Shown piece by piece: positions 15,986-58,038 of a stretch of DNA of 64,000 nucleotides. This DNA is from a virus. The position numbers and the translations under genes were made by a program. Below the pieces are notes generated by a model. The model was not told the DNA's origin, did no database searches, and saw only the letters and a program-made list of their open reading frames with translations. The first letter of the stretch is position 1; each line of letters opens with the position of its first letter. Location of the stretch: positions 1-64,000 of IMG/VR virus record IMGVR_UViG_3300025150_000006; one strand, written 5' to 3'.

Positions 15986-16386
15986 GCCCGGTTACCCCGT
16001 GTCTTGGCTGCACGAGACCGCTTCTCGTACTCGGTGGTGTCCTTGCCTTTGCTGGCTGCGAGCTTCGCGGCATCGCCCCAGTTGTCCACCCGCTCACCCT
16101 CGACGTTGGGTGCCAGATTGAACTGGGGACCGTCCATCTTGAGCTGCGCCTCACGCTGTCCCACATGCTCTCGTCGTTGAGCCATCTGGCGCTTGATACG
16201 GATGTTCTTGCCCGGCCAGACATCCCCCCGCAGAACCCCACCCACACCGGTAGCGATCTGCATCTTGGCAGGCTCCCCGCACTCGGGGCACTCCTGTGGG
16301 GTGTTGCGGTTCGCGATGGCCAGGGTCGTGAAGAACCCCGTCCCACATTCCTCGTCACTGCATTTGAAACTGTACTCAGGCATCAC
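15982..16386 (-). CDS. FmdB-family zinc-ribbon protein
   Basis: MPEYSFKC...CG...CPECG. Confidence 0.8.
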   Translation of the reverse strand: MMPEYSFKCSDEECGTGFFTTLAIANRNTPQECPECGEPAKMQIATGVGGVLRGDVWPGKNIRIKRQMAQRREHVGQREAQLKMDGPQFNLAPNVEGERVDNWGDAAKLAASKGKDTTEYEKRSRAAKTRGNRA

Positions 16387-18842
16387 TGCACCTCCAATGA
16401 TGCAAGATACCGAGCTGCCAACTTTCGGCGATGCAATTCAAACTCAGGGAAATCTGCAACCATCTTACCAACACGCACGCTATCGGCTAGATAGCGTGCC
16501 TGACGTTGCTGAGCCTTGGGCACGGACCAACGATTGCTCGTGACATGATCCAGAACGGCAAGGACGTGTTTGCACGCCCGATGCTGACCATTGGGGTCCT
16601 TGATGTTGGGACGGGTGGCAGAACCTTGTGGGGACCCATACAGGTAGCCACCCGCCTTGGCCCAGTGCTCCGGCCCCTGCCACTGCCAGAAAGGACAAGA
16701 ACAGCTCACTTTGACGTGAGCCTTGCGGATGTCAGTGACGTTGCCTTTGCGTTGGGCCTTGAAACGTACACGGTAGGGATCCTTGGACCCCTGCACGTCG
16801 AACAACCAGACTCCGTTCTTCTCGCTCACCCGAGCGACCCGGAAGTCCAGCCCCTGTGCCCGAGACACCAAGTCACTGGCGCAACCCTCACGGATGTCCC
16901 GGATCAGAGCTGCCGTCCGGTAGGCCCTGCGAGCCACCTTCATATGGACGATCTGATCGAACATCTTGTGGAGGCCATCCTGGGTGAGGGTGTTCCACCC
17001 ATTGGCCTGAAGAAACTGGAGCACCTCACGATCCACAGCCCGGCCATTACGGTACTGCCTCCACAGGGGAGTCTTGATGAGCTGTGTGAGCGCCTCACGA
17101 CACTGTCGAGGAAGTGCTCGGTAGTTGAACTTGGCGGACTTCTCGACGTGGTCCTTGCCCGAAGGGTACACCCGACTCCCTGGATTGGAGTCGTGGACCT
17201 CGTCCTCGTAGGGGCCGTTCATGCCTGGTGTACCAGGCTTACGGTCACGACGTGACCGCTCATCGTGATCATTGGCTCGGTCGTAGACCTGATCGGGGTC
17301 CATATCCGGCGGACGCTGCTCCCGAAGGAAGTCGGCAATCACCTCAGAAGCCAGCCTGTGAGCAGCATCCTGATTGAACCAGGCATCGAACAAAGGGTCC
17401 TCCTCGTCATCCTCGTCCTCGTCGGAATCATCCTCGTCATCCGTGAGCAGATCATCGAGGTACAGGAACAACTCATCCTGGTACTCTTCCTCGACCACAG
17501 CCTCGGCGAAGAACGTCTCGATGTCCGTGGACTCCTGCTCCCCATCCCCCCACTCAATCAGGGCATCCCCCTCGGGAGTCACCTCCAGAAGTGTGCCCCA
17601 CTCATCGGTAGGGTAGTGGAAGAACGGGATGCCCTCGAAGGATGCCTTCTTGTCTTGCTTCTTCTTGCGGTCCATCTTGCTTCTCTGAGAGATAGTGCTG
17701 GGACCACCTCCGGGACGACGCTTGTGACGAGCTGGAAGCTCCTTCGCCTTCTCACGTCGAGACTGGAACCGGTTGTTGTTCTTGAGACGACGCCAGCGCC
17801 GAGTCACCTGACGCTTGATGCGTCCCTTGAGTCGCATGTACCGCTTGGCAAAGTACCGCTTCGCCCGGCCCTTCTGGACCTTCTCTCGCATGTTCCCAGG
17901 AGGATGGGGAGAGGTGAAACGAGGCTTGTACCCGGCTTCCACACCCCTCCCATCATCCCACTCTGCCCACACGTCAGAGAGGTCCCAATCCTGCTCAGCC
18001 GTCATTCCAGGGCGACGGCTCGGGGTGATGCCCGTGTTGTTGTACGGAGTGTCAGGATGCGTCTTGCCCCCGTCGTACTGGCCACCGGGCCGCCCCTTGG
18101 TGCGAGCCTTGTCCTTGTGGATGTTGCCATCCGAGCTGGACCCGGACTCACCAGGGACGTTCAGGACAGTGGGACCCTTGGTGGGCTTGCTGCGGCTCCA
18201 GGGCGGGGAGGGGAGACCCTGGGTTGGGTACTTGCCGTCCCCCTTCTCCTCATCACCCGTGTCGGATTTCTGCGGGGCAGGGTCCTTGACGAACGTGCGG
18301 TAACCACTCTGGTCCTGCGTCGTGATGGCGGCGTGGCGTGGATGCGTTCCGCACGTCTCTGGACGAGGATCCTTGAGTCCCACCCAGAACGTCGAGATGA
18401 TCACCGCTGTGCCACGCTCGTTGCGGAAAACCACCCGCAGATCACCGAGCTTCTTGTCGTTCCACTCGATGGGCTCACCACGCATGGTGTTGCGCTCGAA
18501 CTCTTCCCACTGCCACGACTTCTGTGACTTCCAGTCGTTGAGCTTCCGGCTGTAGTTCATCAACGCGACTCGAAGGTCACCTACCGTGATAGACCGCTGA
18601 TCCATCCGGTATTGGGCGTGGGGCGAGATCCGCATCGCCTTGAACAACCCGCCACCCTTGTCAGAGGTCATAGAGTAGACCTTGGCAGCCTCCGGGTTGC
18701 TCAGCTTGTCCCCGTGCTCGACCTTCTCGGCCAGGTCATCCCGCAGAACGGGGGACCTCACCTGATGTTCGATACGTTCCACCACCTTGCAAGGACCGCC
18801 CTGCCAACCAAGCGGGGGACTGAGATCGGCCTGACGTGCCAT
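16383..18842 (-). CDS. Multidomain putative internal head protein: DUF4258-like domain, basic tract, acidic tract, SWIM Zn finger
   Basis: ISPHAQYRMDQRSI; K/R-rich segment; CSCPFW...CKH; C-terminal RKLAARYLA. Confidence 0.75.
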   Translation of the reverse strand: MARQADLSPPLGWQGGPCKVVERIEHQVRSPVLRDDLAEKVEHGDKLSNPEAAKVYSMTSDKGGGLFKAMRISPHAQYRMDQRSITVGDLRVALMNYSRKLNDWKSQKSWQWEEFERNTMRGEPIEWNDKKLGDLRVVFRNERGTAVIISTFWVGLKDPRPETCGTHPRHAAITTQDQSGYRTFVKDPAPQKSDTGDEEKGDGKYPTQGLPSPPWSRSKPTKGPTVLNVPGESGSSSDGNIHKDKARTKGRPGGQYDGGKTHPDTPYNNTGITPSRRPGMTAEQDWDLSDVWAEWDDGRGVEAGYKPRFTSPHPPGNMREKVQKGRAKRYFAKRYMRLKGRIKRQVTRRWRRLKNNNRFQSRREKAKELPARHKRRPGGGPSTISQRSKMDRKKKQDKKASFEGIPFFHYPTDEWGTLLEVTPEGDALIEWGDGEQESTDIETFFAEAVVEEEYQDELFLYLDDLLTDDEDDSDEDEDDEEDPLFDAWFNQDAAHRLASEVIADFLREQRPPDMDPDQVYDRANDHDERSRRDRKPGTPGMNGPYEDEVHDSNPGSRVYPSGKDHVEKSAKFNYRALPRQCREALTQLIKTPLWRQYRNGRAVDREVLQFLQANGWNTLTQDGLHKMFDQIVHMKVARRAYRTAALIRDIREGCASDLVSRAQGLDFRVARVSEKNGVWLFDVQGSKDPYRVRFKAQRKGNVTDIRKAHVKVSCSCPFWQWQGPEHWAKAGGYLYGSPQGSATRPNIKDPNGQHRACKHVLAVLDHVTSNRWSVPKAQQRQARYLADSVRVGKMVADFPEFELHRRKLAARYLASLEVQ

Positions 18843-18843
18843 G

Positions 18844-19254
18844 TCAGCCTCCCCGCAACTGAGCCAGCAAGAACCTCACTGCCACACGGTCGATGACCAA
18901 AGCCTCCGTGGAAGCGTACCGATGCCCACCCCCACCAAATGCAGGCAGGACGGCTTCATCAACCATCTGCTTGTCGTGCAGTGGGAGCCGTGCTTCAAGG
19001 AACTTCTCGCCCATCTTGGATAGGGCCAACGACGTGCGGTCGAGATCCAGTTCTAACCGCTCCAGGCGACGGGGAGCCCCTTGGATGAGGTCCCCGGCAA
19101 CCTGGTGCAGGTGTTCCTTGTGATCGGACTGCTCCACCAACTTCATCGCCCGATTGATCAGGTGCTTGAGTCGGTGAGCTTCCACCCGAGCCGAGGAGAC
19201 GCCCTCCGTGACGAGAGCCCATGCTGCCTGGCTGCTTGCGATTCGATTGGGCAC
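18844..19254 (-). CDS. Putative internal head protein
   Basis: GTG start after GGAGG; C-terminal IDRVAVRFLLA motif. Confidence 0.65.
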   Translation of the reverse strand: MPNRIASSQAAWALVTEGVSSARVEAHRLKHLINRAMKLVEQSDHKEHLHQVAGDLIQGAPRRLERLELDLDRTSLALSKMGEKFLEARLPLHDKQMVDEAVLPAFGGGGHRYASTEALVIDRVAVRFLLAQLRGG

Positions 19255-19261
19255 GAGGGTC

Positions 19262-19315: not shown

Positions 19316-19328
19316 CCGAAGAACAGCC

Positions 19329-26660: not shown

Positions 26661-26823
26661 GCAAAGGATTATACACAGGTAATCCTCCAAGGTGCAGCTG
26701 AAATGAGGATGAGAAGTTCGGAAGAATGCGTCCATTCTTAGTGTGTCGGTCAACCAATGCACGCAACATAACCTACAGCCCAAGCCCTGTTTGAATGGGT
26801 GTGGTGCTTTTAACTCCAAAAGC

Positions 26824-26859
26824 AAAACGCCCCCTCAACCGGAGTTGAGGGGGCGTTTT
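26824..26859. terminator. Bidirectional Rho-independent terminator after the capsid gene
   Basis: AAAACGCCCCCTCAAC-CGGA-GTTGAGGGGGCGTTTT perfect inverted repeat. Confidence 0.9.
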
Positions 26860-26904: not shown

Positions 26905-27777
26905 TCAGCGGGTGACCGTCAGACGAGCCAACCCACGGGGGTTGTAGGCTCCGAGGCCCAAATTTTCAAAAATCGAGAAACCAATCATCCGGCGCTTCGG
27001 GTCGTCGGCCGAGAGGACGGTCAGCTCGGTACGGACGGGGATCCGACCGAACATCTCGGGCTCACAGCAGAGGTAGACCGTACCGTTGGGGACGAGACGG
27101 CTGGTGACGACGTTGGCACCGTAGATCACACCCTGGAGACCGGTCTTGAGCAGGGTTGCCTGGGACTCGATGTCGAGGATGTCGCGGCCGAACTTGCGGA
27201 TGTCCGCGTAGTCCCTGGCGTTCATGTAGATGCGGGCGACCCGGAGGTCATGCCGCTCGATGAGCGCGAAGGCATCCGCGAGGACCGCACCCGAGATGGG
27301 GGCGATGACCGGGATGTCGGCGTTGAGCTGACCGGGGAGGCTGTCGAAACCGGCAGTGGCCACGGAGTCGAGAACGGCGAACACTCGCTCGTCCTCAGCG
27401 GCCTGGATCTGCGCACGCCCGAGGTCCTGGGACCGCTCGATGAGATCGAAACGGCGCTCCTTGATCTGGGTGAGCGGGATCTCCGGGTTCGAGGCGATCT
27501 CGAACAGCGGGAAGATGACACGACGGGGCTTCGTGACGGCGAGGATATTCTGACCCTCTTCGCCGACCACGTATGCCGTGACGTCGGGGTCCTTGTCGTA
27601 GATCGGCAGCGCGCCGTCGGGGAGCTGCTCGACCAGGAAGGTCTTGCGGCCCACGGCGGCGTAGTCGCGACGAGTACGCAGGGGCTGTGTCATCGAGGCA
27701 GCGAGCTTCGCACGACCCTGGGGGGTCTTGATGTACTCGCCGATGATCTTCTGCTTGACAGCGTTGGTGACACTCAT
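26905..27777 (-). CDS. Major capsid protein (HK97-like fold)
   Basis: 290 aa, GAGGAGG SD, extreme codon bias, strong terminator; spine helix (DLIERSQ...IQAAEDERVF) and YGANVVTSRLVP. Confidence 0.85.
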   Translation of the reverse strand: MSVTNAVKQKIIGEYIKTPQGRAKLAASMTQPLRTRRDYAAVGRKTFLVEQLPDGALPIYDKDPDVTAYVVGEEGQNILAVTKPRRVIFPLFEIASNPEIPLTQIKERRFDLIERSQDLGRAQIQAAEDERVFAVLDSVATAGFDSLPGQLNADIPVIAPISGAVLADAFALIERHDLRVARIYMNARDYADIRKFGRDILDIESQATLLKTGLQGVIYGANVVTSRLVPNGTVYLCCEPEMFGRIPVRTELTVLSADDPKRRMIGFSIFENLGLGAYNPRGLARLTVTR

Positions 27778-27790
27778 GACGGTGACCTCC

Positions 27791-28429
27791 TCAGATCCGC
27801 TGGTCGTAGACCAGGTCGCCTTGGGTTGCATCGGGGGCCATCTTCACGATGCCGATGACAGTGGGCTGGAGGTTCTGCACCGTGGCAGCGTGGATGTCCC
27901 CCTGCTCCCAGAGCTGAGCATTGGAGTTGGCATCGTCGGCCGCGAGGGCGTTGGTGAGGTAGCCGTTCTTCGAGGCGAAGAGCTTCTGGCCGACGTTGTA
28001 CGCCGTCAGAGCCACACCGTCGGCGAGCGACTTGTCCTCAAACAGCGTGTTGCCGAACGTACCCTGACCCGAGACGTATGGGTTCTTGCCCGAGGCCGTA
28101 CCCGGCGTGTTCTCGAACGCATTGCCGTTCGCGCTGTTGATGAAGACACCGAGGATGCCGACGTTGCCTGTGCCAACGGCCGGAGGTCCACCGATGAAGT
28201 TGCTGCCGCCGCCTGCATCGCCGCGAGCAAAACAGACCGAGCCGCTCAGAACGCCCGAAAGCGTCTGATCGACCTGAGCCGTGATTGCCGTGGCCACCTG
28301 GGGTGGGTTCGTCTGAGTGAAGGCATCATCGGTCAGCACGCCTACTGAGTTCGCAATCCCGAGGTTCAGGATCCGCAGCGCGCTGCTCGACTCCGTCCAT
28401 CCACCGCTTGCCTGTCCGAGCAAAGGCAT
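27791..28429 (-). CDS. Putative capsid decoration/cement protein
   Basis: Between scaffold and MCP; G/T/N-rich beta protein. Confidence 0.6.
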   Translation of the reverse strand: MPLLGQASGGWTESSSALRILNLGIANSVGVLTDDAFTQTNPPQVATAITAQVDQTLSGVLSGSVCFARGDAGGGSNFIGGPPAVGTGNVGILGVFINSANGNAFENTPGTASGKNPYVSGQGTFGNTLFEDKSLADGVALTAYNVGQKLFASKNGYLTNALAADDANSNAQLWEQGDIHAATVQNLQPTVIGIVKMAPDATQGDLVYDQRI

Positions 28430-28655: not shown

Positions 28656-30269
28656 TCAGGAGAACGAGCCGCTCACGTCGGGGTCGGAGGCCCAGAGGTT
28701 CGACAACTCGTGGATGTCACCGTTGGCCGAGGCGGCCTTGGAGCGGACAGCACCGACGGTCTTGACGCCCTTGCTGGCCTTCTTGGGCTGGGGCTTGAGG
28801 ATGCTGGCCAGGCGAGCGCTGGCCTCCTTGTCGGAGTCCCCACCCTCGTCGTCGGCGTCCTCATCGTCCGACCCGAAGACCTCACGGAAGGCGGCCTCAT
28901 CGGCGGCAGTCAGGTTGGTCCCGTCTGCCAGACCCATCGGGTCGAACCCGGTGGCGAAGAAGTGAGCATCGGCCTCCTTGTCGGAGCCGTCCTCATCATC
29001 CTCGTCCTCGTCCTCGTCGTCCGAAGCCTTCTTCTTGCCGGCCTCGACACCCTCATCGTCGTCATCGTCGGCGTCGGGCTCGTCCTCAGCCTTCTTGGCG
29101 GCCTTCTTGGCCTGGGCGGCCTTCAGGACCATCAGGGCCTTCTTGGCGGCCTTCTTGGCGGCCTCGACCTCGGCATCCGCGTCGTCCTCGTCCTCATCGT
29201 CGTCGGCCTTCTTGGCCTTCTTGCCGGCGACCTCGACGTCATCCTCATCCTCGTCGTCCGAGGCCTGAACACGCATCGCGGCGAGCATCTCCATCTCGTC
29301 ATCGTCGAACTCGTCGCCCATCAGGTCGTCGCCGCAGGCTTCCTTGTCGGAGCCCTCGTCCTTCTTCTTCTCGCAGTTGTCACGAAGCGCCTCGGGGAGC
29401 TTCTCGCAGCCGGCGAGGACCTCGTGGCGAGCGATGATGCCGTCACGGTCGGTGTCCATCGAGGCGAACATGGCACGGGGGCCACCCCAGTCCTCGGCGG
29501 TCACGAAGCCGTCGCCATCGCTGTCGAAGGCATCGAACATCGCCATCACGGGGTTGGCGGCCTTGTCGTTGATGTTCGAGATGGCCTTCTCTTCCGCCTT
29601 CTCCTGCTCAGCCGTCTCGCCAGAAGCACCGATGGTCTGACCATTCGGGTCGTTCTGGCTGGCTGCGGCACGGAGTGCCTTCAGCTCGCTCTCCATCGCG
29701 GAGAGACGGGCCATCAGACCCTCCGTCCCGTCGTCGAGATCCATGTCCATCCCGTCGTCGAGACCCATGTCCATCCCGTCGTCGGGGAACATCCCCATCA
29801 GCTCGTCCTCCATCCCCATGAAGTCCCCACCGAGACGCCCGATGCTGGCGTCGAGAGCGGAGTCGTCCATGGACATGAACCCGAAGGCCTGGTCCTCGAT
29901 GGCATCCCAGGACGCCTTACGACCGTTGGACGTGAGGGTGGCCTTGGCGAGCACGAGGGCCTTCGCCGACTTGCGACGGACCATCTCCATGAGGCTGGCC
30001 TGGCGACCGACCTGACCCTGGTGGGCCGGGTGATCCTGGTCCTCGACCCCGTAGCCGGGAATCGCGGGCGGGCCGCTGTCCCCGTAAGGGCCGGGGTGGA
30101 CGTCCTCGGCGAACTCGGACGGGCCTCCGATCATGTACGGGGCCGAACCCGGGTCATCCTGATCATGAGCCGGGTGATCCTGGTCCTCAACTCCGTAGCC
30201 GGGAAGTGCGGGGGGTGCAGCCGCCTTGCGGTCAAGGGCTGCCCACGTCATGCGCTGACGAATGCTCAT
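28656..30269 (-). CDS. Putative scaffolding protein with an EF-hand pair
   Basis: Between protease and MCP; acidic low complexity; loops DSDGDGFVTAED and DTDRDGIIARHE. Confidence 0.7.
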   Translation of the reverse strand: MSIRQRMTWAALDRKAAAPPALPGYGVEDQDHPAHDQDDPGSAPYMIGGPSEFAEDVHPGPYGDSGPPAIPGYGVEDQDHPAHQGQVGRQASLMEMVRRKSAKALVLAKATLTSNGRKASWDAIEDQAFGFMSMDDSALDASIGRLGGDFMGMEDELMGMFPDDGMDMGLDDGMDMDLDDGTEGLMARLSAMESELKALRAAASQNDPNGQTIGASGETAEQEKAEEKAISNINDKAANPVMAMFDAFDSDGDGFVTAEDWGGPRAMFASMDTDRDGIIARHEVLAGCEKLPEALRDNCEKKKDEGSDKEACGDDLMGDEFDDDEMEMLAAMRVQASDDEDEDDVEVAGKKAKKADDDEDEDDADAEVEAAKKAAKKALMVLKAAQAKKAAKKAEDEPDADDDDDEGVEAGKKKASDDEDEDEDDEDGSDKEADAHFFATGFDPMGLADGTNLTAADEAAFREVFGSDDEDADDEGGDSDKEASARLASILKPQPKKASKGVKTVGAVRSKAASANGDIHELSNLWASDPDVSGSFS

Positions 30270-31774
30270 TGCATGTCTCCTTTGATGTGGCGACTGCCAG
30301 GTGAAACTTGAAACCCACTTCGAGCCTGGCCTCGCCGTGAGATGAGCTTGCCGAGCCTGATAAGAACTCTTGCTTCGGCGGTGGTGGGCTTACGGCCGAG
30401 AGCCGCCTGACAAGCCCGTGCAAACTGATTCAACGACTCGTAGCCCTGAACGGACCCCAGTCGAAGAGCAGTCCGGTACAGGGGCACGGGGATAGACACC
30501 CCGTACTCCTGGTTCAGCAGTGCAACCTTGTCGAGCAGAGCCACATCACTGGATGCGGTCCGGCAGAGGAAACCCAGGGTGGCCCCATACACGAGATTGT
30601 GCTCGCTGGGCACCAGGTCATCCATCTCTGCTTGCTTGACCAGATTGTCGTTGGGAGCCGTTGCGGCATCCTCGGGACCAAGGGCCTCATCAAGGTCCTT
30701 CTGGTCCATGTCCTTCTTGAGCTTCTTTCGCACCCGGTCTTTCAGGTGTGTCTCAAGCTCTTCCTCAACGTCCTCGAAAGGACCCTTCTTGGGCTCTTCC
30801 CTGGCAGGGGCTGCATCATCAGCCGGAGCATCTTCTTCGTCACCCCAACCAGCCATGAAAGAGTCACCATTGCCAAAGGCAATGGCTGCGGCCTTACGGC
30901 GCTGTCCCTTGGTCCACTGCTCGGGAGGGGTCTGGAGGATGACCGAAGCTGCTTTGCCCAGATCATCTCCCTTGTGGATGGCAAGAATGTTCCGAAGCAC
31001 TGCACCAGTGAACGCCGGGGTTCCTACCCACGATGCCTCGATGAACTGATTGCCACCGGTGGGGTCCAGGCTAGGATGCCCGCACAGCTCCGCGACCCGA
31101 TGCTGCCGACCCTGCTCGTCGAAGAAGGTGTTGCCCTTCTCGTATTTGATGTGGGGACACATCTCGGTCTCGTCCGCTGCCCAGTGCCCGCACTTGGTGC
31201 AGATGGTGCCATCGACAGTGCAGCCCATGGACAGGGTGCTCATCTTGCCGGACTCGATGGCCTCTACCAGGTCCTCGTGCTTCCGGTCCGTCGCGATGAG
31301 GATGTCCACATAGACCGTGTCACCGAGGTCTCGGGCCACTGCATCAATGATGCGTCCCTTGCTCAGCTCCTCGACCTGGACGTGCTCGACGAAATTGTGC
31401 CCACCGATGAAGGTCCGGTAGCTCTTGAGCAGAACATCCCGGTCCCAAGCATCGAGGTTGTTGTTGATGTACTTGTCAGCACCGAGCTTGACCCGGAAAT
31501 TGCCAAACTTCCGATTGACCCGGAACCCACCCTCCATCACCGACCCGAGCTTCGCATTGGGTGGGGCGTAGGTATCCACCGATGCAACGATGGTCACATG
31601 GGTGAGTAGGTAGTCCTTCGGGACGAAAAGCTTTCCAAAAATCTCGGATGCCCGGTCGATGAGGTTCTCACTGACCTCTGCCGATGCCTTGGCTGCTTTG
31701 CGGACCTTGGCCCAGCCGGACCCGTTGACGTTGGGCGTTTGGATGGAGCCCCTGGCGAACTTCAAAAAAGCCAT
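30266..31774 (-). CDS. Putative prohead maturation protease with a Zn finger
   Basis: NFVEH...KGRIIDA...TLSMGC, CTKCG...CPH, FIEASWV..PAF; canonical position. Confidence 0.7.
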   Translation of the reverse strand: MAFLKFARGSIQTPNVNGSGWAKVRKAAKASAEVSENLIDRASEIFGKLFVPKDYLLTHVTIVASVDTYAPPNAKLGSVMEGGFRVNRKFGNFRVKLGADKYINNNLDAWDRDVLLKSYRTFIGGHNFVEHVQVEELSKGRIIDAVARDLGDTVYVDILIATDRKHEDLVEAIESGKMSTLSMGCTVDGTICTKCGHWAADETEMCPHIKYEKGNTFFDEQGRQHRVAELCGHPSLDPTGGNQFIEASWVGTPAFTGAVLRNILAIHKGDDLGKAASVILQTPPEQWTKGQRRKAAAIAFGNGDSFMAGWGDEEDAPADDAAPAREEPKKGPFEDVEEELETHLKDRVRKKLKKDMDQKDLDEALGPEDAATAPNDNLVKQAEMDDLVPSEHNLVYGATLGFLCRTASSDVALLDKVALLNQEYGVSIPVPLYRTALRLGSVQGYESLNQFARACQAALGRKPTTAEARVLIRLGKLISRRGQARSGFQVSPGSRHIKGDMQ

Positions 31775-32640
31775 CAGCCCACCGCCTTCTTGTTACGGTT
31801 GGCCAGGAACTTCTTGCCCTTGGCAGTGAGCTTCATCTCAGCCTTGCCCACCATCTCGGCAATGCCGAACTTGGTGAACTTGGTGAGGTCCCTCTGCTCC
31901 ATATGAACTGTAGAGACCTTGCCCTTCTCAGCCATCGTCTCCAGAAATCCGATCTGGTGTTTGTCCAGACCAAGGTCCTGGATGCTGGCCTTCTTACCGG
32001 CCTCGATCGTCTCGTCCCAGTCATCTGAGAGACCATCCTCGGACCCGTCCGCGAAATCATCGAGGTAGTCGGGGTCACCGATGATGTCCTCACGCTTGAT
32101 CAGGAACAGGCAGGTCGGGCATCCCAGCAGTCTGTGGCTCTTGCCCTCGGACCGCTTGTAGTTGGCCGGGCGAAGGAAAATGGGATTCCCCTCCTCATCC
32201 GCTTTGCACTTGGGGCAAATGTACTTGCCGTCTTCGCACTCGACCTTGCTGCCCCGGTAGTGACGGTCCTTGCCGGCCCAGTAGAGGGCGGACTTCACGT
32301 AGGCCTGAGCCACTCGGTCGAGGACTTCAGCAGCCGTCTTGGCAGGCCCACCTGGAACACTCACCGTCCCGGCACCGCCGGGAACGGTTGTGTTCTCCAC
32401 ACTGGGTGGGATAGCGATCACATTGGTGACCCGCTGCAAGTCCTCGACCGAGTAGCGACCTGGTCCCCAGGGGAACTCCAGGTCCACTTGGCCGATGCCG
32501 GGCCAAACAGCAACCACACGCCCCGCCTGGGACTCATCCGTCGCGCCGCCGGCAAGCGGAAACGCGAGGTCACCAACAGAGAACTCGCGGGCTCTCTGTT
32601 GGTAGTCCAAGTAGGCGGTGGCTTGGTGCTGCTGTCCCAT
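31774..32640 (-). CDS. Putative head protein with a Zn ribbon
   Basis: CPKC...CPTC; KTA and LDRVAQAY motifs. Confidence 0.7.
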   Translation of the reverse strand: MGQQHQATAYLDYQQRAREFSVGDLAFPLAGGATDESQAGRVVAVWPGIGQVDLEFPWGPGRYSVEDLQRVTNVIAIPPSVENTTVPGGAGTVSVPGGPAKTAAEVLDRVAQAYVKSALYWAGKDRHYRGSKVECEDGKYICPKCKADEEGNPIFLRPANYKRSEGKSHRLLGCPTCLFLIKREDIIGDPDYLDDFADGSEDGLSDDWDETIEAGKKASIQDLGLDKHQIGFLETMAEKGKVSTVHMEQRDLTKFTKFGIAEMVGKAEMKLTAKGKKFLANRNKKAVG

Positions 32641-33380: not shown

Positions 33381-33440
33381 ATGGTGATCCTCCGTGTCCG
33401 ATGCCGAGGTGGACAGCACAGGGCACACAGTGGCCCTTCG

Positions 33441-39828: not shown

Positions 39829-39840
39829 AGGCCACTCCAA

Positions 39841-39881
39841 TGAGGTCCCCTTCTGTTCAAGGGGACCTCATAGGCGAACAA
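39841..39881 (-). promoter_or_regulatory. Partial class II motif overlapping a 12-bp hairpin upstream of the polyprotein gene
   Basis: TTGTTCGCCTAT; TGAGGTCCCCTT/AAGGGGACCTCA. Confidence 0.5.
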
Positions 39882-48802: not shown

Positions 48803-51064
48803 CTAGAAGTTCCAGCCATCACCGAACAGTACGTCCCCGATGTTTTCCGTGACCGAGGGGTCATCCAACTCGACGTTCATCGAGTCACCGAGGTTGAACT
48901 CTCCGGGGTTGAACAGTGACGCCGTGATCTCGTGATCTGAAGCGTTGGCCACCTGGAGCATCTTCCGCTTGAAATCCGCCGCATCCTTCGGGATCTGGTG
49001 GAGAAGCTCCTTGCCGTACTTCGTGCAGACACCATTGGCGTTGGCCAACGTGCACCCAGCACATCGGTCCATCGCCTTGACGAACCGAATCTGGTTTGCC
49101 CGGTGCAACGACGCGGACTTCTCGCAACCCGTGGACCCCGTCTTCGACGCATAGGCCTCGGCGTCAACGTAGAGGTGACCCGAAAGCCCCTCGTGCTCGT
49201 CACGAAGCATCGCGATGAGACCCTCACCCGCTGCCCGCAGGGGGCTAGCAAACCGGATGGTCATCAGAGCCGTGAGGTCATCCCCCGCCATCCCCTCGGA
49301 CATCTTCTGGCGGACCCAGCGGGCCATGCTCTGGAACTCGGCGACCCGGATTCCACTGGCAGCCGATGCCTGACGCATCGCCTCCTGATCGGCTGCCAGC
49401 TTCTTAGGCCTGGGACCCTGCTGGAGAGCCCGCTTGATGACGGGGCCACCGTACTCCTGAGCTGCCGCCGACCGCTTCATCGCGACCTTGCGAGTGCCCG
49501 AGGAGTTGGCGTAGGCCGTGGCCAGCTTGAGCATCTCCTCAGGAGTGCCCTGCTCTAGGGCCAGACGTGCCTCCTTCTCAGAAAGCTGCCCGGCATCTAG
49601 CATCGCTACAACGTGGGCACGAGCCTTGTTACCCTGAACCCTGGACAGCTCCGCCTGAGCGAACGCGGTCCACACTTTTCGAACGGCCTGCCGATGAGCG
49701 GTGACTCGGGTGCCATCCCCATCGTACTGGGCCACCTTGGGCATCTGGTTCGCCCGAGCCAGAGATTCGGCAGCCTTGCGGATGGCCTCCGGGCTCGCCT
49801 TGGAGTGGCTGAGCTTGAGCACGTCAGCCTGGGAGATGAGCCCAGCCGCTCCTGCCTTCTGTACGGTCACCAGGGCCGCCTTACGGGCCCTGGCCTGGTC
49901 ATCCCTGGCAACGACCTGCCGAACTTGGCGGGGGGCCTCAGCAGCCATCCTCCTGGCCTCTGAGAGGGTCACCCGGTCAGCCGGGCGGACATCCACCGGC
50001 TTCACCGAAGCAGTGTGCCCCACCTCACGAGGTCCAGTCAGGAACGCGAGCTGGAGGGTCTTCTTCGGGTCGCCACCGACGCTGGCCACCTTGTAGCCAG
50101 CCGCTGTCAAGTTCGCCGTGTAGATCTTGAGGGCCTTCTTCCAGGGCACCTCGGAGACCATCTCCATCCCGAGCTTGGCAGCAACCGCCGGATCCTCGGT
50201 GAGTACATAGCGAGCGGTACGAGCGACCTTCCGAAGCTCCTTGGCCCACTTGCCATTCCGCAGACCTGGAAAGGCACTGGCCCGAACAAACACGTTGCCC
50301 GCGACTCCGTGATCCGCTGCGATGATGCCTACTGCCTTGGATGCCATCTTCTTGTCGAGGTTGGCGTGCAGGTAGTTGGCGATCTCCCCCATCGTCCGAC
50401 CATAGTGGGACATCCGCACGGCCTTCTTGAGATGCCAGGAGGCATCCCCAGCATTCTTCCCTACACCAGGCGTCGCGGGACGACCGGACTCGATGGAGTC
50501 CTCGTAGTTCGCGATCTCCTTGTCCCGGTTCGGGACGAGAGCGAGACCATCCGTTCTCCGGTTCACACCCCAGGCCTCCTCCAGCTCGATGGAGGAGTTC
50601 AACGGGGGCTTGTCCGGGCGCAACTCCTTGGGGAGTCGGGCAGGGTCCTGCTCTTGAGTGGGGTCGAGCCAGCTCAGGTCCGCCAGACTGGCAGCGTGCT
50701 GCTCAGCAGCAGTCATGTGCAGGCCACCCTCGTTGGGGGACAGCATATCCCCCAGGTCGAAAACACCCTCGTCCTCGTCTACGAAGGACAGATCCCCAAA
50801 GTCATCGGCCTCCTTGGAGTCACCCTCGCCGCTCATGAGCCCATCGGGAAGAGCGGACATCCCCTTGGTCTGAGCAGGGGTGATGGGGCCTGACATACCA
50901 CCCAGGTCCCCGTGGTTCCGAAGTCCCTCACCCAAGGTCTGGTCGTGATGGAAACCATCAAGGCCATAGTTGGACCCTTCAGTCCAGGTGAAGTCATCCG
51001 ACGGAAGGTCTGACCCCGCCATGAACGCATCCTCCCAAGACGCCTGCTTCTTCTTGGTGCTCAT
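48803..51064 (-). CDS. Putative head protein (753 aa) with C-terminal Cys cluster
   Basis: KKQA, KEA, KVA sites; C...CAGC...C. Confidence 0.7.
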   Translation of the reverse strand: MSTKKKQASWEDAFMAGSDLPSDDFTWTEGSNYGLDGFHHDQTLGEGLRNHGDLGGMSGPITPAQTKGMSALPDGLMSGEGDSKEADDFGDLSFVDEDEGVFDLGDMLSPNEGGLHMTAAEQHAASLADLSWLDPTQEQDPARLPKELRPDKPPLNSSIELEEAWGVNRRTDGLALVPNRDKEIANYEDSIESGRPATPGVGKNAGDASWHLKKAVRMSHYGRTMGEIANYLHANLDKKMASKAVGIIAADHGVAGNVFVRASAFPGLRNGKWAKELRKVARTARYVLTEDPAVAAKLGMEMVSEVPWKKALKIYTANLTAAGYKVASVGGDPKKTLQLAFLTGPREVGHTASVKPVDVRPADRVTLSEARRMAAEAPRQVRQVVARDDQARARKAALVTVQKAGAAGLISQADVLKLSHSKASPEAIRKAAESLARANQMPKVAQYDGDGTRVTAHRQAVRKVWTAFAQAELSRVQGNKARAHVVAMLDAGQLSEKEARLALEQGTPEEMLKLATAYANSSGTRKVAMKRSAAAQEYGGPVIKRALQQGPRPKKLAADQEAMRQASAASGIRVAEFQSMARWVRQKMSEGMAGDDLTALMTIRFASPLRAAGEGLIAMLRDEHEGLSGHLYVDAEAYASKTGSTGCEKSASLHRANQIRFVKAMDRCAGCTLANANGVCTKYGKELLHQIPKDAADFKRKMLQVANASDHEITASLFNPGEFNLGDSMNVELDDPSVTENIGDVLFGDGWNF

Positions 51065-51648
51065 GAAGGGCCTCCCTCGTCCATTTCAGCTTCTTCACCC
51101 TCGGCCCAATCCTCGGGGTCTTCCTTGATCTCATCCACGTCATCCATGATCTGCTGGACCTCTGAACGGGCGCGGGGGTCTCCACCGGAGTCGTTCACGT
51201 CGGGATGCCAGTGGATGGCCTTGATCTCATCATCGAGTGTATCTGCAATGGAGGACAGAGCCTCATCACAGTTCGAGAGCTGCTTACGGATGTCCTTCAC
51301 GGGCATCACATAGCCCTTGCCCCCGAGATTCCCATCAGGAGAGATCCTCTGACTCTTGATCTTCGTGAACGTCGTGCGGGCGGTCTGGATGTGACCAAGC
51401 GCCATCAGCACACTGCGGAGGGTCCGAGCAAGGGGCTCAAGATTCTTGCCGTCGAACTTGTAGTCGGGGTCGATGTTCCGCTCGGAAGAACCAGGTGGGT
51501 TCCAGCCCCACTCGTGGTGGTCCCCGCCCCGATCCTTAATGAACCGGACCTCGCCAGCCGTCTTCGACCGTGTCGGCCGCAAGGCCGCCCGCACGAAACG
51601 TGCAGTGACTCGCTCAACGGCTTGTTTCATCTGGCGGTTATCGGACAC
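51061..51648 (-). CDS. Putative internal head protein
   Basis: VERVTARFVRA and SKTAG motifs. Confidence 0.7.
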   Translation of the reverse strand: MSDNRQMKQAVERVTARFVRAALRPTRSKTAGEVRFIKDRGGDHHEWGWNPPGSSERNIDPDYKFDGKNLEPLARTLRSVLMALGHIQTARTTFTKIKSQRISPDGNLGGKGYVMPVKDIRKQLSNCDEALSSIADTLDDEIKAIHWHPDVNDSGGDPRARSEVQQIMDDVDEIKEDPEDWAEGEEAEMDEGGPS

Positions 51649-51668: not shown

Positions 51669-51696
51669 CTACTGGTTCGCTGGTATAGGCTCACTA
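51669..51696 (-). promoter_or_regulatory. Class II promoter-like motif
   Basis: TAGTGAGCCTAT-N12-GTAG. Confidence 0.7.
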
Positions 51697-52551
51697 GCGC
51701 CCAACCATTGAGGGCTCCAGGTTGAAGTCCTTCTTCATCAGGTCCCAGTTAACCGAGAACCAACGTCCGGTCCATTCGATGTACCGATGCTGGAGCAGGT
51801 ACAACACACGAGCAGCGACCGCGATGGGCAGCAAGGTGAACGTCCCAAATCCGAAGATATTGAGCACCCCACCAAAGGCTGAACCCGGCAGAGAAGCCAG
51901 GAAATCAGGGAAAGACATAGCCCCCGTGACGGCATCGGTGAGACCCTTGAAATCCCACTCGAACTCCGTGACGTTCATCCACACCCAGATGTAGATGCCC
52001 ACCATCAACACCCCCATGATGTGAGGAGCGTGCTGACGTAGCATCTCACCGAAGGAACCCAAGTGGCTGATCCCGGCGTCCAGCACCTTCTTGAGCTTGG
52101 GGGACTTGGCCATCAGGCCACTGATCAGGTCATTGAACGACTTGAGTTTGCCCTTCTCCAGCGTGTAAATGCGCAGGGGCCACGAGTCGAACATCTTGTG
52201 GATGAGTCCTCGCAGAGCCTTCTTCGCCTTCGCGGCCAGGTCCTTGATCGCCCTCGGAATGTCCAGAAGGCTCTTGATGCCGATCAGGTGCTTGAACTTC
52301 TCCCAGAGTTGGGGTGCTTTCTTGAACACCTCTACGAGCTGCTTGAGCTTGCGAATGAGTCCACCGAAAGCCACCCGCCCCTGATACTGAGGCAAGTAGA
52401 AGTGCTCTGCAAAGGCAGCCACCACGTCAGGCGTCAATCCCGACGTGGCCAGGCGTGTGCTTGAGCCGGCACACGCGGCGGTGGCTGCCATACGGACCAG
52501 GTAGCGGTCCGCCAGCCGGTCAATTGCCTGGCGAGCCTGGCCCATCATCAC
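51694..52551 (-). CDS. Putative head/ejection protein with hydrophobic helices
   Basis: N-terminal IDRLADRYL; C-terminal TM-like segments. Confidence 0.65.
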   Translation of the reverse strand: MMMGQARQAIDRLADRYLVRMAATAACAGSSTRLATSGLTPDVVAAFAEHFYLPQYQGRVAFGGLIRKLKQLVEVFKKAPQLWEKFKHLIGIKSLLDIPRAIKDLAAKAKKALRGLIHKMFDSWPLRIYTLEKGKLKSFNDLISGLMAKSPKLKKVLDAGISHLGSFGEMLRQHAPHIMGVLMVGIYIWVWMNVTEFEWDFKGLTDAVTGAMSFPDFLASLPGSAFGGVLNIFGFGTFTLLPIAVAARVLYLLQHRYIEWTGRWFSVNWDLMKKDFNLEPSMVGR

Positions 52552-54454: not shown

Positions 54455-54457
54455 CGG

Positions 54458-55063
54458 TTACCTCACCTGACCTTGATACTTGTGGAGCGTGGTCCGCACG
54501 TACTGCCGGATGTCCTTGGCCATCTGGGCGTAAGGGCCATTTCCCCCGCCATCAAACTCTGTCTCTTCCACCAGGTCGTCCAGGATCTGGGCGGCCTCCA
54601 ACCCCTTGGAAGCATAACTCTCCAGAGCCTGCTTGAGCTTGGCCCTGTACTGTCCTGCCCCGGCGAGCCGAGTAGTGGCATACCTTCCCTTGCGAAGGAC
54701 ACCCTTGGCGGCAAGTTGACAGAACAGGCCAACCCGCATCCGGCGATTCATCAAAATCGGGCTCCCTGACCGACTCATCTTCAGGTAGGCATCCAACCCC
54801 TTCTCATCCGCTGTCACACCGCGAAGACGACTGGCTTCCTCTCCGAGAAGGGCTGACATCGTATCACGGTCGTAGCCCATCTTGCGTGCTTCCTCACGGA
54901 AGACGTTGATGCCCCAGTCGGAGAGTTCCCCCTGGTTATACCGATCGGGATCACGACCGAAATCCGCCAACATCATCTTGGCGGTCCCAATCAACCCCAG
55001 GGGGGATGCGAGCACTCGAAGGGCTAGTTTGTCTATCCGTGCTTCGTTCATCTTGTTCCTCAC
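54458..55063 (-). CDS. Putative internal head protein
   Basis: IDKLALRVLA and TRLAG motifs. Confidence 0.6.
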   Translation of the reverse strand: MRNKMNEARIDKLALRVLASPLGLIGTAKMMLADFGRDPDRYNQGELSDWGINVFREEARKMGYDRDTMSALLGEEASRLRGVTADEKGLDAYLKMSRSGSPILMNRRMRVGLFCQLAAKGVLRKGRYATTRLAGAGQYRAKLKQALESYASKGLEAAQILDDLVEETEFDGGGNGPYAQMAKDIRQYVRTTLHKYQGQVR

Positions 55064-55749: not shown

Positions 55750-55752
55750 CGA

Positions 55753-57723: not shown

Positions 57724-57729
57724 TGGATC

Positions 57730-58038
57730 TCACCAGATTCCGGTCGTTTCGAAGCCACGCTTCTCAAACCACTGACCAAGGGCCATCAAGCCGTCGTGAT
57801 CCTTGGACCACAGCTCCAGGCCATCAAAACTGGAAGCGACACCGAGGTCCGCAACACGCGGAACACCCTTCATCGCGACCTTGCCGTCACGGAACGAGTA
57901 GAGCAGACTCGCCAAGTTACGGATTTCCTGTGCACCGTACAGCACACGAATCCGATACTCCGGGAACGAGACCTCACGGAGCCACCTTTCGGCGACCCGT
58001 TTCGTCATCAGCACCTGGTTTTTGGACTCATTCTTCAT
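57730..58038 (-). CDS. Putative internal head protein
   Basis: TKRVAERWL motif; first gene after a class II motif. Confidence 0.65.
   Translation of the reverse strand: MKNESKNQVLMTKRVAERWLREVSFPEYRIRVLYGAQEIRNLASLLYSFRDGKVAMKGVPRVADLGVASSFDGLELWSKDHDGLMALGQWFEKRGFETTGIW

What the first reader, a model, noticed from the sequence alone, without database searches (positions are those of the whole stretch)
16383..58038. Recurrent R-[VL]-A-x-R-[YFW] helix across unrelated head-region proteins: candidate capsid-targeting signal
Seen: RKLAARYLA (16383, C-term), IDRVAVRFLLA (18844, C-term), LDRVAQAYV (31774), TRVAHRYIQA, RRLAARWF and ARVGSRWV (polyprotein), ERVTARFVRA (51061, N-term), IDRLADRYL (51694, N-term), IDKLALRVLA (54458), LLRVASE (55753), KRVAERWL (57730), RKIAERA (portal N-term). 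It usually sits at termini or next to an x-A site, and I did not see it in the replication or accessory genes. Inference: an address tag analogous to the T4 capsid targeting sequence that loads diverse cargo into the prohead.
Basis: partly seen in the sequence, partly recalled or inferred. Interest (0 to 1): 0.85.

Follow-up and report, generated by a model that had tools for sequence, protein, structure and literature searches.

The report
Terminal address tag on huge-phage cargo
An uncultured huge-phage lineage puts one short basic helix (A-x-R-V-A-x-R-[Y/W]-L) on the N- or C-terminus of many unrelated proteins, next to protease-type cut sites, so it is probably a removable label that loads enzymes into the phage head; no experiment has shown this.

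Summary
The motif is real. In the 105-kb contig that holds the window, R[VL]A.R[YFW] occurs 7 times in coding frames against 0.15 expected, and never on the non-coding strand. A matrix trained only on relatives finds 9 sites against 0.2 expected. A complete 436-kb relative has 19 to 27 sites against about 1. A cultured, more distant phage of similar GC (Tunturi_5) has none at termini.

About half of 96 non-redundant copies lie within 25 residues of a protein end (14 expected), in at least 22 unrelated protein groups. Within one orthologous family the tag sits at the N-end, the C-end or both. It is always outside a conserved core that is bounded by [KR]-x-A|[SGA].

That site motif is concentrated in scaffold-like proteins beside the head protease. 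It is also conserved in the N-termini of the portal and the protease. Annotated replication genes lack the tag.

Best reading: a cleavable, position-independent prohead-targeting peptide, like T4's capsid targeting sequence in logic and like encapsulin loading peptides in placement. The binding partner, the cleavage and the packaging are all inferred.

First-stage notes from overlapping windows of this genome report the same motif. Follow-ups elsewhere in the scan describe analogous tags with different sequences.

The parts
16404..16424 (-). C-terminal tag KLAARYL of the 819-aa protein (residues 807-813 of 819)
   Evidence: Orthologues in G001 and G006 end in RVAARYL + 6-9 residues.
18868..18888 (-). 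C-terminal tag RVAVRFL of the 147-aa protein (residues 134-140 of 147). The R-Y-A-S site lies at 18910-18921, just upstream.
   Evidence: 68 of 81 short homologues end in the tag (strict or relaxed pattern).
32296..32316 (-). Variant tag RVAQAYV in the 288-aa protein next to the protease, preceded by K-T-A-A
   Evidence: The variant R-V-A-x-A-[YFH]-V is conserved at the same position in the family. One 107-aa relative ends in KVASRYL.
37633..37653 (-). Internal tag RVAHRYI (residue 730) of the 2115-aa polyprotein, preceded by K-E-A-A
35563..35583 (-). Internal tag RLAARWF (residue 1420) of the polyprotein, after the topoisomerase IB module
   Evidence: Conserved in G001.
35071..35091 (-). Internal tag RVGSRWV (residue 1584) of the polyprotein
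   Evidence: G001 has RVALRWL at the aligned place.
33493..39840 (-). 2115-aa portal-adjacent cargo polyprotein: CCA/polyA-type nucleotidyltransferase (38-278) and topoisomerase IB (1153-1348). An HNH gene lies in another frame at 37865-38530.
   Evidence: Its modules are separate N-tagged genes in G005 and other relatives.
51592..51612 (-). N-terminal tag RVTARFV of the 195-aa protein (residue 13). The K-T-A-G site lies at 51553-51564.
52498..52518 (-). N-terminal tag RLADRYL of the 285-aa protein (residue 12). The R-L-A-T site lies at 52444-52455.
55010..55030 (-). Weak N-terminal variant KLALRVL of the 201-aa protein (residue 12), unverified
   Evidence: No homologues in the set.
57979..57999 (-). 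N-terminal tag RVAERWL of the 102-aa protein (residue 14), with no cut site after it
30266..31774 (-). Head maturation protease, the presumed enzyme for the [KR]-x-A sites. Its own N-terminus has a conserved K-[IV]-R-x-A-[SA].
   Evidence: phrog_18299, E 3.8e-13
28656..30269 (-). Acidic scaffold-like 537-aa protein with 12 [KR].A[SGAT] sites (2.9 expected)
32667..33428 (-). 253-aa helical protein with 8 sites (1.4 expected). In relatives it is fused to the C-end of tagged topoisomerase polyproteins.
26905..27831 (-). Major capsid protein, no tag. It is one candidate receptor, not shown.
   Evidence: phrog_2522, E 2e-48
40699..42393 (-). Portal protein. It has no tag, but a conserved M-R-x-[KR]-x-A-[ST] lies before the conserved body.
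48803..51064 (-). 753-aa protein with 17 [KR].A[SGAT] sites (4.5 expected), next to the tagged small genes

Best explanation
The motif is a short basic amphipathic helix. Its fuller consensus is [S/M/L]-A-x-[R/K]-[V/L/I]-A-x-R-[Y/W/F/H]-[L/I/V]-x-[R/A]. It serves as a portable, position-independent docking tag in one lineage of uncultured huge phages.

The proposed sequence of events is as follows. The tag is fused to either end of cargo proteins, or placed between modules of cargo polyproteins, through a variable linker that carries a [K/R]-x-A|[S/G/A] site. During head assembly the tag binds a conserved component inside the prohead, either the scaffold core or the inner face of the capsid shell, so the cargo is enclosed. 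The head maturation protease then cuts at the [K/R]-x-A sites. This frees the cargo cores from their tags and splits polyproteins into modules. The cargo is later delivered with the DNA.

What is shown: the motif, its excess over chance, its terminal placement, its modularity within families, its link to the site motif, and the concentration of that site motif in head-assembly proteins.

What is inferred: binding inside the prohead, cleavage at the sites, presence in virions, and injection.
For: Excess and strand specificity:
- G000: 7 strict hits against 0.145 in shuffles, 0 on the plus strand.
- 64 related loci: 83 hits in coding-strand ORFs (300,735 aa) and 0 in opposite-strand ORFs (59,872 aa).
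- Complete genome G006: 27 hits in minus-strand frames against 1 in plus-strand frames. In called genes, 19 against 1.09 in shuffles.
- A matrix trained without G000 finds 9 G000 sites at 13 bits or more, against 0.21.
- The motif holds in contigs of 47-68% GC, and its codons vary at synonymous sites.
- Negative control Tunturi_5 (58% GC, 98,440 aa): 1 internal hit.

Terminal placement: 50 of 96 copies against 14.4 +/- 3.2 expected. N-terminal tags start at residues 4-21, and C-terminal tags end 1-9 residues before the stop.

Modularity:
- At least 22 unrelated protein groups carry the tag.
- In the 195-aa family, of 87 anchored homologues 35 have a tag-like helix at both ends, 24 at the N-end only, 18 at the C-end only and 10 at neither. 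The core always begins at [KR]-[TV]-A|G-E-V-x-F.
- The 285-aa family keeps the helix and then R-x-A-[SA].
- In G005 the polyprotein is split into genes that start with the tag at residues 6-7. The topoisomerase IB module carries its own tag in relatives.

Link to the head:
- [KR].A[SGAT] is enriched beside tags.
- It is concentrated in the scaffold-like 537-aa protein (12 against 2.9), the 253-aa protein (8 against 1.4), the 753-aa protein (17 against 4.5) and the 916-aa protein (17 against 4.8).
- It is conserved in the portal and protease N-termini.
- Tagged genes flank the portal, the protease and the MCP.

Structure: AlphaFold puts the tag in a helix (residues 3-23) followed by a low-confidence linker that holds K29-T-A-G32.

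Cargo types are plausible for injected enzymes: topoisomerase IB, nucleotidyltransferase, GNAT, 2H phosphoesterase, C39-like and WLM-like peptidases.

The tag is absent from the RecA, RecD2, RNR, clamp-loader, SNF2, nuclease, polymerase-like and GroEL genes.
Against: - There are no virion proteomics, no cleavage data and no identified binding partner. No cultured phage carries the system.
- Most tagged proteins have no recognisable function, and the two folded cores match nothing solved. 'Head protein' status therefore rests on gene neighbourhood.
- In G006 about a third of the tagged genes lie far from the head module, at 154, 180, 243, 252-255 and 269 kb.
- The 102-aa family has the tag but no cut site.
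- Only 40% of N-terminal tags have a recognisable site within 45 residues.
- The first three residues of the tag (R-V-A) themselves fit the site motif, so tag and site are not cleanly separable.
- Gene starts come from naive ORF calls, so exact N-terminal distances are uncertain.
Confidence: 0.6

Rival explanations
1. The helix is a substrate-recruitment (exosite) element for the maturation protease, not a capsid address. It would dock the protease so that nearby [KR]-x-A sites are cut, while entry into the head is decided by something else.
For: Tags and sites are neighbours on the outer side of conserved cores. The tag itself begins with R-V-A, which fits the site motif. The protease is the one head component whose link to the sites is most direct.
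Against: The spacing between tag and site varies from 0 to more than 40 residues. The heavily cut scaffold-like proteins have many sites but no tag. The 102-aa family has a conserved tag and no site. Polyproteins carry fewer tags than sites.
Confidence: 0.15
2. The helix docks these proteins to some other phage or host hub unrelated to the capsid, for example a chaperonin, a replication or transcription factory, a tail or baseplate part, or another tagged protein through helix-helix pairing.
For: Short terminal motifs shared by unrelated proteins are typical of hub binding in general. The contig encodes a GroEL-like chaperonin. Several tagged genes of G006 lie far from the head module. A follow-up elsewhere in the scan found that a shared phage leader tracked an enzyme rather than the capsid (e1-127136).
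Against: None of the annotated replication or recombination proteins carries the tag. The flanking site motif is the one that is concentrated in scaffold-like proteins and conserved in the portal and protease. The most consistently tagged genes sit between the portal and the MCP or just after the MCP. I looked for no co-occurring partner gene outside the head module, and none is known.
Confidence: 0.15
3. There is no shared function. The matches reflect Arg/Ala/Val-rich composition of a 60% GC genome, ordinary amphipathic helices, or local paralogy.
For: The pattern was defined after the fact. R, A, V and L are common residues. One 10-residue string (TRVAHRYIQA) is identical in two proteins, which could be a local duplication.
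Against: The excess is 17- to 50-fold over shuffles, with almost nothing in reversed sequences or on the other strand. The motif persists at 47% GC. It is conserved in orthologues while flanking linkers vary in length and sequence. The terminal bias has a z-score of about 11. The GC-matched Tunturi_5 lacks it. At least 22 groups without other similarity carry it.
Confidence: 0.03
4. It is an export or leader signal: a Tat/Sec-type signal peptide, or a RiPP/bacteriocin-type leader removed by the C39-like peptidase.
For: Some copies are N-terminal, basic, and followed by small residues and an x-A site. A C39-like peptidase domain is encoded at 97064-100144.
Against: There is no twin arginine and no uncharged hydrophobic core. 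The segment after the helix carries E, R or Q in orthologues. Many copies are C-terminal or internal. Carriers include proteins of more than 1000 residues. There is no Gly-Gly site. In G006 the C39-like protein is itself tagged.
Confidence: 0.02

Closest known systems
Phage T4 capsid targeting sequence (CTS) of internal proteins IPI-III and Alt, removed by prohead protease gp21 (Mullaney and Black 1996, as cited in PMC10052503)
   Same: A short peptide shared by unrelated proteins, joined to a prohead-protease-type cut site. It is carried by enzymes that make sense as injected cargo. The proposed order is the same: load, then clip.
   Different: There is no sequence similarity. The presumed site is [K/R]-x-A| rather than the hydrophobic-x-Glu sites of T4 (my own knowledge) or the A-x-E of giant phage SPN3US (PMC10052503). 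The tag also works from C-termini, at both ends of one protein, and between polyprotein modules, whereas the T4 CTS is N-terminal. Nothing has been tested experimentally here.
Encapsulin cargo-loading peptides (short terminal peptides that bind the inside of an HK97-fold shell; PMC8346489)
   Same: A short terminal peptide, usable at either end, that would address diverse cargo to the interior of an HK97-type shell.
   Different: The consensus is different (from my own knowledge, encapsulin peptides are Gly/Ser/Leu-rich, not Arg/aromatic helices). Encapsulin tags are not removed by a protease. The shell here is a DNA-packaging phage capsid with scaffold and portal.
N-terminal propeptides of giant-phage head and ejection proteins (phiKZ, 201phi2-1, SPN3US; PMC10052503, PMC5694885)
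   Same: Giant phages load many proteins into the head. Some of these carry short (20-24 residue) or long propeptides that the prohead protease removes, and a targeting role is suspected.
   Different: The two papers I read describe no shared targeting motif for those phages. Except for the protease itself, their propeptides are N-terminal only. The lineage here is unrelated to phiKZ-like phages; its portal is nearest to phage G and Tunturi_5.
Coat-binding C-terminal helices of scaffolding proteins (P22-type; my own knowledge)
   Same: A basic amphipathic terminal helix that binds the inside of the procapsid shell by charge and hydrophobic contacts.
   Different: Those helices belong to one scaffolding protein, not to a set of unrelated cargo proteins. 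The scaffold-like proteins here end in a different conserved peptide (E-L-S-x-L-W-x-S-x-P-D-V-S).

Membership tests
T4-type capsid targeting sequence system | One short peptide shared by otherwise unrelated phage proteins | tested here: met
   At least 22 groups without other similarity carry the tag. The excess over chance is shown.
T4-type capsid targeting sequence system | The tag lies at the extreme N-terminus of the precursor | tested here: not met
   30 copies are N-terminal, 20 are C-terminal and 46 are elsewhere among 96. One family carries the tag at both ends.
T4-type capsid targeting sequence system | The tag is removed by the prohead protease at a consensus site | tested here: inconclusive
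   [KR]-x-A[SGA] sites flank the tags on the core side. The site motif is concentrated in scaffold-like proteins, the portal and the protease. Cleavage itself was not observed.
T4-type capsid targeting sequence system | The tag is sufficient to carry a foreign protein into the prohead | not testable with these tools
   This needs a reporter fusion and prohead purification.
T4-type capsid targeting sequence system | T4-like cleavage specificity (hydrophobic-x-Glu) and sequence similarity to the T4 CTS | tested here: not met
   The sites here end in Ala after a basic P3 residue. The T4 consensus is from my own knowledge. A-x-E for SPN3US is from PMC10052503.
Encapsulin cargo-loading peptide | A short peptide at the C- or N-terminus of cargo, separated from the cargo by a flexible linker | tested here: met
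   (helix, then a low-pLDDT linker).
Encapsulin cargo-loading peptide | Binds a pocket on the interior of the HK97-fold shell protein | not testable with these tools
   No multimer prediction is available. The MCP was identified only by phrog_2522.
Encapsulin cargo-loading peptide | The shell is a DNA-free nanocompartment without portal, terminase or protease | tested here: not met
   A portal, a maturation protease and scaffold-like proteins are present.
Tat/Sec signal peptide | N-terminal only, an uncharged hydrophobic core, small residues at -1 and -3 (and twin Arg for Tat) | tested here: not met
   C-terminal and internal copies exist. Charged residues follow the helix, and the presumed site has a basic residue at -3.
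RiPP or bacteriocin leader with C39 peptidase | A leader on small precursor peptides, cut after Gly-Gly, encoded beside its maturase | tested here: not met
   Carriers are 100 to more than 2000 residues long and include enzymes. There is no Gly-Gly site. The tags are scattered over the genome.

The most novel reading that the evidence does not exclude
Huge phages of this lineage use a single bidirectional cargo-loading peptide, usable at either protein end and between polyprotein modules. It binds the conserved procapsid interior and is clipped at [K/R]-x-A by the head protease. The tag would then be a computable label for the whole injected proteome, which here includes topoisomerase IB, a CCA-type nucleotidyltransferase, an acetyltransferase and peptidases. 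It would also be a ready handle for loading foreign proteins into very large capsids.
Probability: 0.5. Interest if true: 0.8.

Novelty: new variant of a known kind. Interest (0 to 1): 0.65.

Why it matters
Huge phages are known almost only from metagenomes, and most of their genes have no assigned role. A tag that marks head cargo would sort dozens of genes per genome into the class 'packaged and probably injected'. The 195-aa family alone has over a thousand homologues. The tag would point to what these phages deliver at infection, such as DNA topology, RNA-end and acetylation enzymes and proteases. The proposed cleavage rule ([K/R]-x-A|) would predict mature protein ends. A tag that works from either terminus would be more flexible for engineering protein loading into capsids than the T4 sequence. 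It would also link phage cargo loading with encapsulin cargo loading. All of this depends on the packaging claim, which is untested.

Tried and rejected
- Nucleotide and protein searches of the cultured-phage collection with the region, the 656-aa protein and the 285-aa protein found nothing. The 195-aa protein matched only an uncultured record, LR745208. No proteomics can therefore be borrowed.
- A pattern scan of IMG/VR with the 656-aa protein found nothing.
- PHROG and Pfam give no families for most tagged proteins.
- AlphaFold models of the 195-aa and 102-aa cores gave no significant PDB match: prefoldin-like and ferredoxin-like similarity at E of 0.08 or above.
- The protease has no solved homologue by sequence.
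- The portal RKIAERA and 656-aa LLRVASE instances are rejected.
- The RVASRVV hit at polyprotein residue 528 is rejected. It lies in the Ser/Thr-rich stretch overlapped by an HNH gene in another frame.
- A long matrix from the 285-aa family alone was too family-specific to be useful.
- A nucleotide-level signal is rejected, because the codons vary at synonymous sites.
- Signal-peptide, RiPP-leader and clamp-binding readings are rejected on placement and sequence.
- Tunturi_5, the nearest cultured relative with similar GC, lacks the tag and so cannot serve as a test system.
- I could not identify the receptor.
Full report
**Setting.** The window is the first 64 kb of a single 105,230-bp virus contig. 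The contig has about 60% GC and nearly all its genes are on the minus strand. CheckV-type completeness is about 24%, so it is a fragment of a much larger genome. Nothing in the cultured-phage collection matches at the DNA level. The portal (40699-42393) is 62% identical to the uncultured 485-kb record LR745208, 34% to Tunturiibacter phage Tunturi_5 and 25% to Bacillus phage G. IMG/VR holds 47 related loci, and one of them lies on a complete 435,804-bp genome with terminal repeats, called G006 here.

The genes I could name are these:
- major capsid protein, 26905-27831 (phrog_2522);
- head maturation protease, 30266-31774 (phrog_18299);
- a very acidic scaffold-like protein, 28656-30269;
- a DNA methyltransferase, 39857-40699;
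- a 2115-aa protein next to the portal, with a CCA/polyA-type nucleotidyltransferase and a topoisomerase IB core;
- an intein-bearing 1448-aa protein, probably the DNA polymerase by synteny with Tunturi_5;
- a clamp loader;
- beyond the window, a PD-(D/E)XK nuclease, a phosphoesterase, an intein-bearing ATPase, RecA, a RecD2-type helicase, ribonucleotide reductase, an SNF2 helicase, a C39-like peptidase domain and a GroEL-type chaperonin.

**Is the motif there?** Eight of the twelve listed strings are present as written, in frame, in long minus-strand ORFs. R[VL]A.R[YFW] occurs 7 times in the 33,441-residue gene set, against 0.145 +/- 0.38 in 2000 within-protein shuffles. It occurs once in reversed sequences and not at all in the three plus-strand frames. 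The seventh position is always L, I, V or F. Two strong copies lie beyond the window, at 87382 and 100775. The second shares ten identical residues with the polyprotein copy.

The pattern was defined after the fact, so I looked for independent replication.
- In 64 related loci, a slightly wider pattern hits 83 times in coding-strand ORFs (300,735 residues) and never in opposite-strand ORFs (59,872 residues).
- In three further contigs of 47%, 59% and 68% GC, the hits again follow the coding strand.
- A position matrix built only from terminal copies in relatives finds 9 sites in G000 at 13 bits or more, against 0.21 in shuffles.
- In the complete genome G006 there are 27 hits in minus-strand frames and 1 in plus-strand frames. 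In called genes there are 19, against 1.09 +/- 1.0 in shuffles.
- Tunturi_5, a cultured and more distant relative of 58% GC with 98,440 residues of ORFs, has one internal hit and no terminal ones.
- The codons of the ten G000 copies differ freely at synonymous positions, so selection acts on the peptide.

Position -2, which was not part of any pattern, is Ala in 25 of 44 copies. The fuller consensus is therefore A-x-R-V-A-x-R-[Y/W]-L-x-[R/A]. The mean net charge of the 14-residue window is +2.6.

Its relatives read VRKVADRKGV, VRDIPTRKGV and so on, with no aromatic residue. LLRVASE lies at about residue 118 of the 656-aa protein. It lacks the second Arg and the aromatic residue, and is simply an R-V-A-S site. 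RVAQAYV in the 288-aa protein is a family-wide variant, R-V-A-x-A-[YFH]-V-K-K-A-L-Y-W, found in 7 of 11 members. A 107-aa relative ends in KVASRYL at that place. KLALRVL in the 201-aa protein is a weak match that I could not check. A further pattern hit, RVASRVV at polyprotein residue 528, lies in a Ser/Thr-rich stretch overlapped by an HNH endonuclease gene in another frame. I discount it.

**Placement.** Of 96 non-redundant copies, 30 start within 25 residues of the N-terminus and 20 within 25 residues of the C-terminus. Uniform placement in the same proteins predicts 14.4 +/- 3.2 terminal copies. C-terminal tags end 1-9 residues before the stop codon, which does not depend on start-codon choice. 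N-terminal tags begin at residues 4-21 of the longest ORF. Several 'internal' copies in G006 have a start codon 4-7 codons upstream, so they may really be N-terminal.

**Modularity.** The carriers fall into at least 22 groups with no other similarity, and 17 of these have terminal copies. Five families are informative.

1. The 195-aa family (window 51061-51648) is the most telling. Its conserved core starts at an invariant A-G-E-V-x-F preceded by K/R-T/V, and ends in an acidic D-P-E-x-W-A-E stretch. Outside the core, linkers of 0 to about 40 residues lead to a tag at the N-end, the C-end or both. The family has 1052 homologues at E of 1e-5 or better. Of the 120 listed, 87 could be anchored. 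Of these, 35 have a tag or close variant at both ends, 24 at the N-end only, 18 at the C-end only and 10 at neither. The residues before the core are KTA (56), RTA (19) or RVA (9). The C-terminal tags are usually preceded by K-T-A-[SA].
2. The 285-aa family keeps the N-terminal helix (x-R-V-A-D-R-Y-L-I-R-L-A-A-R-x-A) in about 73 of 109 homologues. A variable stretch follows, then R-x-A-[SA], then the conserved body. The body contains two long hydrophobic segments.
3. In the 147-aa family, 68 of 81 short forms end in the tag (strict or relaxed pattern). Its likely true N-terminus reads M-P-x-K-T-A-S|S-Q-A-A-W.
4. The 819-aa family ends in the tag in G000, G001 and G006.
5. The 102-aa family has the tag next to its folded core and no site.

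**Polyproteins.** The 2115-aa protein carries tags at residues 730, 1420 and 1584. In G005 the corresponding region is split into several genes, two of which begin M-P-S-A-P-T-R-V-A-G-R-F-L and M-P-T-V-D-K-V-A-A-R-W-L. There the topoisomerase IB module is immediately preceded by R-L-A-D-R-F-L. In other relatives the topoisomerase gene starts with R-I-A-A-L-H-M, H-I-A-A-L-Y-R or I-V-A-A-R-Y-L. G000 has a decayed R-L-A-A-G-K-F at the same junction. The internal copies therefore mark module borders.

The 470-aa protein beyond the window is a tandem duplication. Each of its two halves begins right after K-x-A-[AG], and the second half is headed by the tag.

**The x-A sites.** [KR].A[SGAT] lies within 12 residues upstream of 8 of 15 C-terminal tags, against a background of 6-9%. 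That gives a binomial tail of about 1e-5 by my own calculation. It lies 7-45 residues downstream of 10 of 25 N-terminal tags, against 14-19%, or about 0.01. The site is always on the core side of the tag.

Across the G000 proteome the site motif is over-represented (180 against 109). The excess comes from a few proteins:
- the 753-aa protein: 17 against 4.5;
- the 253-aa protein: 8 against 1.4;
- the 916-aa protein: 17 against 4.8;
- the scaffold-like 537-aa protein: 12 against 2.9;
- the tagged 475-aa protein: 7 against 2.2;
- the 656-aa protein: 9 against 3.5.

The portal keeps M-R-x-[KR]-x-A-[ST] just before its conserved body in most relatives. The protease keeps K-[IV]-R-x-A-[SA] near residue 25. 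Scaffold, portal and protease are the classical substrates of head maturation proteases. In giant phage SPN3US the portal, the ejection proteins and the protease itself are all processed, with propeptides of 20 to 254 residues (PMC10052503). This is the main link between the tags and the head. It is circumstantial.

**Structure.** With the family alignment, AlphaFold places residues 3-23 of the 195-aa protein in a helix (pLDDT about 70). A low-confidence segment at 29-42 follows, containing K29-T-A-G32, and then a helical core. In the 102-aa protein the tag is helix 13-23 in front of a compact alpha/beta core. Neither core matches a solved fold convincingly.

**What carries the tag, and what does not.** In G000 and G006 the named carriers are enzymes that are not obviously structural: topoisomerase IB (twice in G006), the CCA/polyA-type nucleotidyltransferase, a 2H phosphoesterase-like domain, a GNAT acetyltransferase, a C39-like peptidase and a WLM/SprT-like metallopeptidase. 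The other carriers are unannotated. None of the replication, recombination or nucleotide-metabolism proteins carries the tag. Nor do the MCP, the portal or the scaffold-like proteins.

In G006 about two thirds of the tagged genes lie in the roughly 90-kb stretch that wraps from 431 kb to 84 kb and contains the MCP, scaffold, protease, polyprotein and portal. The rest sit in five small groups elsewhere.

**Interpretation.** The data fit a removable docking tag. The cargo is made with the helix on a flexible linker. The helix binds something conserved inside the assembling prohead. The protease then cuts at [K/R]-x-A and releases the cores. This is the logic of the T4 capsid targeting sequence. 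The placement at either terminus recalls encapsulin loading peptides. I give this reading 0.6.

The main rivals are these:
- The helix recruits the protease rather than the capsid (0.15). Arguing against it are the variable spacing, the tag-less but heavily sited scaffold proteins, and the site-less 102-aa family.
- The helix binds some non-capsid hub (0.15).
- Composition or chance is essentially excluded.
- Signal-peptide or RiPP-leader readings are contradicted by the C-terminal and internal copies and by the size and nature of the carriers.

**Literature and earlier notes.** Two full-text searches found no description of this motif, or of a shared targeting peptide in huge phages. The SPN3US papers state that the role of giant-phage propeptides is still open and only suggest T4-like targeting. 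First-stage notes on overlapping windows of this genome report the same motif and the [KR]-x-A code. Follow-ups elsewhere in the scan describe analogous leader tags with different sequences in T4-like and other phages. One of them found a shared leader that tracked a radical-SAM enzyme instead of the capsid, which is why I kept the hub rival open.

**Limits.** Gene calls are from ORF length and codon-position GC, not from a trained gene finder. The relatives were chosen through head genes, so 'clade-wide' means the lineage with portal identity of about 52% or more. The receptor, the cleavage, the packaging and the injection are all unobserved.

Noticed in passing
window 37865-38530 (-), inside ORF 33493-39840: A 221-aa HNH endonuclease gene (PF13392, E 1.4e-8) lies in another frame inside the polyprotein ORF. 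The host frame there is Ser/Thr-rich. It is flanked by two copies of an SH3-like segment, K-I-F-E-L-N-V-G-D-P-V-L-M-G-K-Y-K-N and K-T-F-E-L-N-I-G-D-P-V-L-L-G-K-Y-R-N. This looks like a mobile insertion, and how it is removed is unknown.
   Followed up: partly
G000 97064-97426 (-) (L084:15064-15471); window 18757-19251 (-): A C-terminal domain of about 110 residues, ending ...F-E-A-V-A-Y-L-S, closes the C39-like 1026-aa protein. The same domain ends the long (about 235 aa) forms of the 147-aa family and some C39-like relatives. In G000, similarity to the long form continues past the TGA stop of the 147-aa gene. The domain's role is unknown, and it may be a second shared module.
   Followed up: partly
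window 28656-30269 (-): The scaffold-like acidic protein has an EF-hand calcium-binding loop match (PF00036, residues 242-261) and two copies of P-G-Y-G-V-E-D-Q-D-H-P-A-H. Its family has its own leader (M-x-R-x-R-x-T-W ... [KR]-[KQ]-A-S-x-P-P) and a conserved C-terminal E-L-S-x-L-W-x-S-x-P-D-V-S.
   Followed up: partly
window 51694-52551 (-): After its presumed propeptide, the 285-aa family has two long conserved hydrophobic segments (V-A-I-Y-I-W-I-W-M-N-V-V-E-F-E-W-D and F-G-F-G-T-F-T-L-L-P). This would suit a membrane-active ejection protein.
   Followed up: no
window 30266-31774 (-), C-terminal 45 residues: The protease family ends in a conserved basic amphipathic helix, x-L-[IL]-R-L-[GS]-K-[LI]-[LI]-S. 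It is different from the tag and could be the protease's own incorporation signal.
   Followed up: no
G000 94271-97021 (-): The 916-aa protein repeats a leader of about 35 residues, A-D-P-T-x-N-M-S-x-E-D-A-x-K-W ... D-K-F-K-[QT]-A-[GA], at residues 18-52 and 435-469. It has 17 [KR]-x-A sites. It may be a second type of module header.
   Followed up: no
window 43199-47545 (-); G000 68655-70901, 78309-82346, 89186-94261 (-): Inteins with LAGLIDADG domains interrupt four large genes: the polymerase-like protein, an ATPase, ribonucleotide reductase and an SNF2 helicase. A free-standing LAGLIDADG/HTH/methylase ORF of 767 aa lies at 24522-26825, between the MCP and downstream head-module genes.
   Followed up: no
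L022:1938-2876 and L033:14196-16463 (relatives): Some tagged proteins carry a small domain with G-I-K-V-E-M-E-H-T directly after the tag. Precomputed PF18905 is listed on several 195-aa family members that have this C-terminal extension.
   Followed up: no
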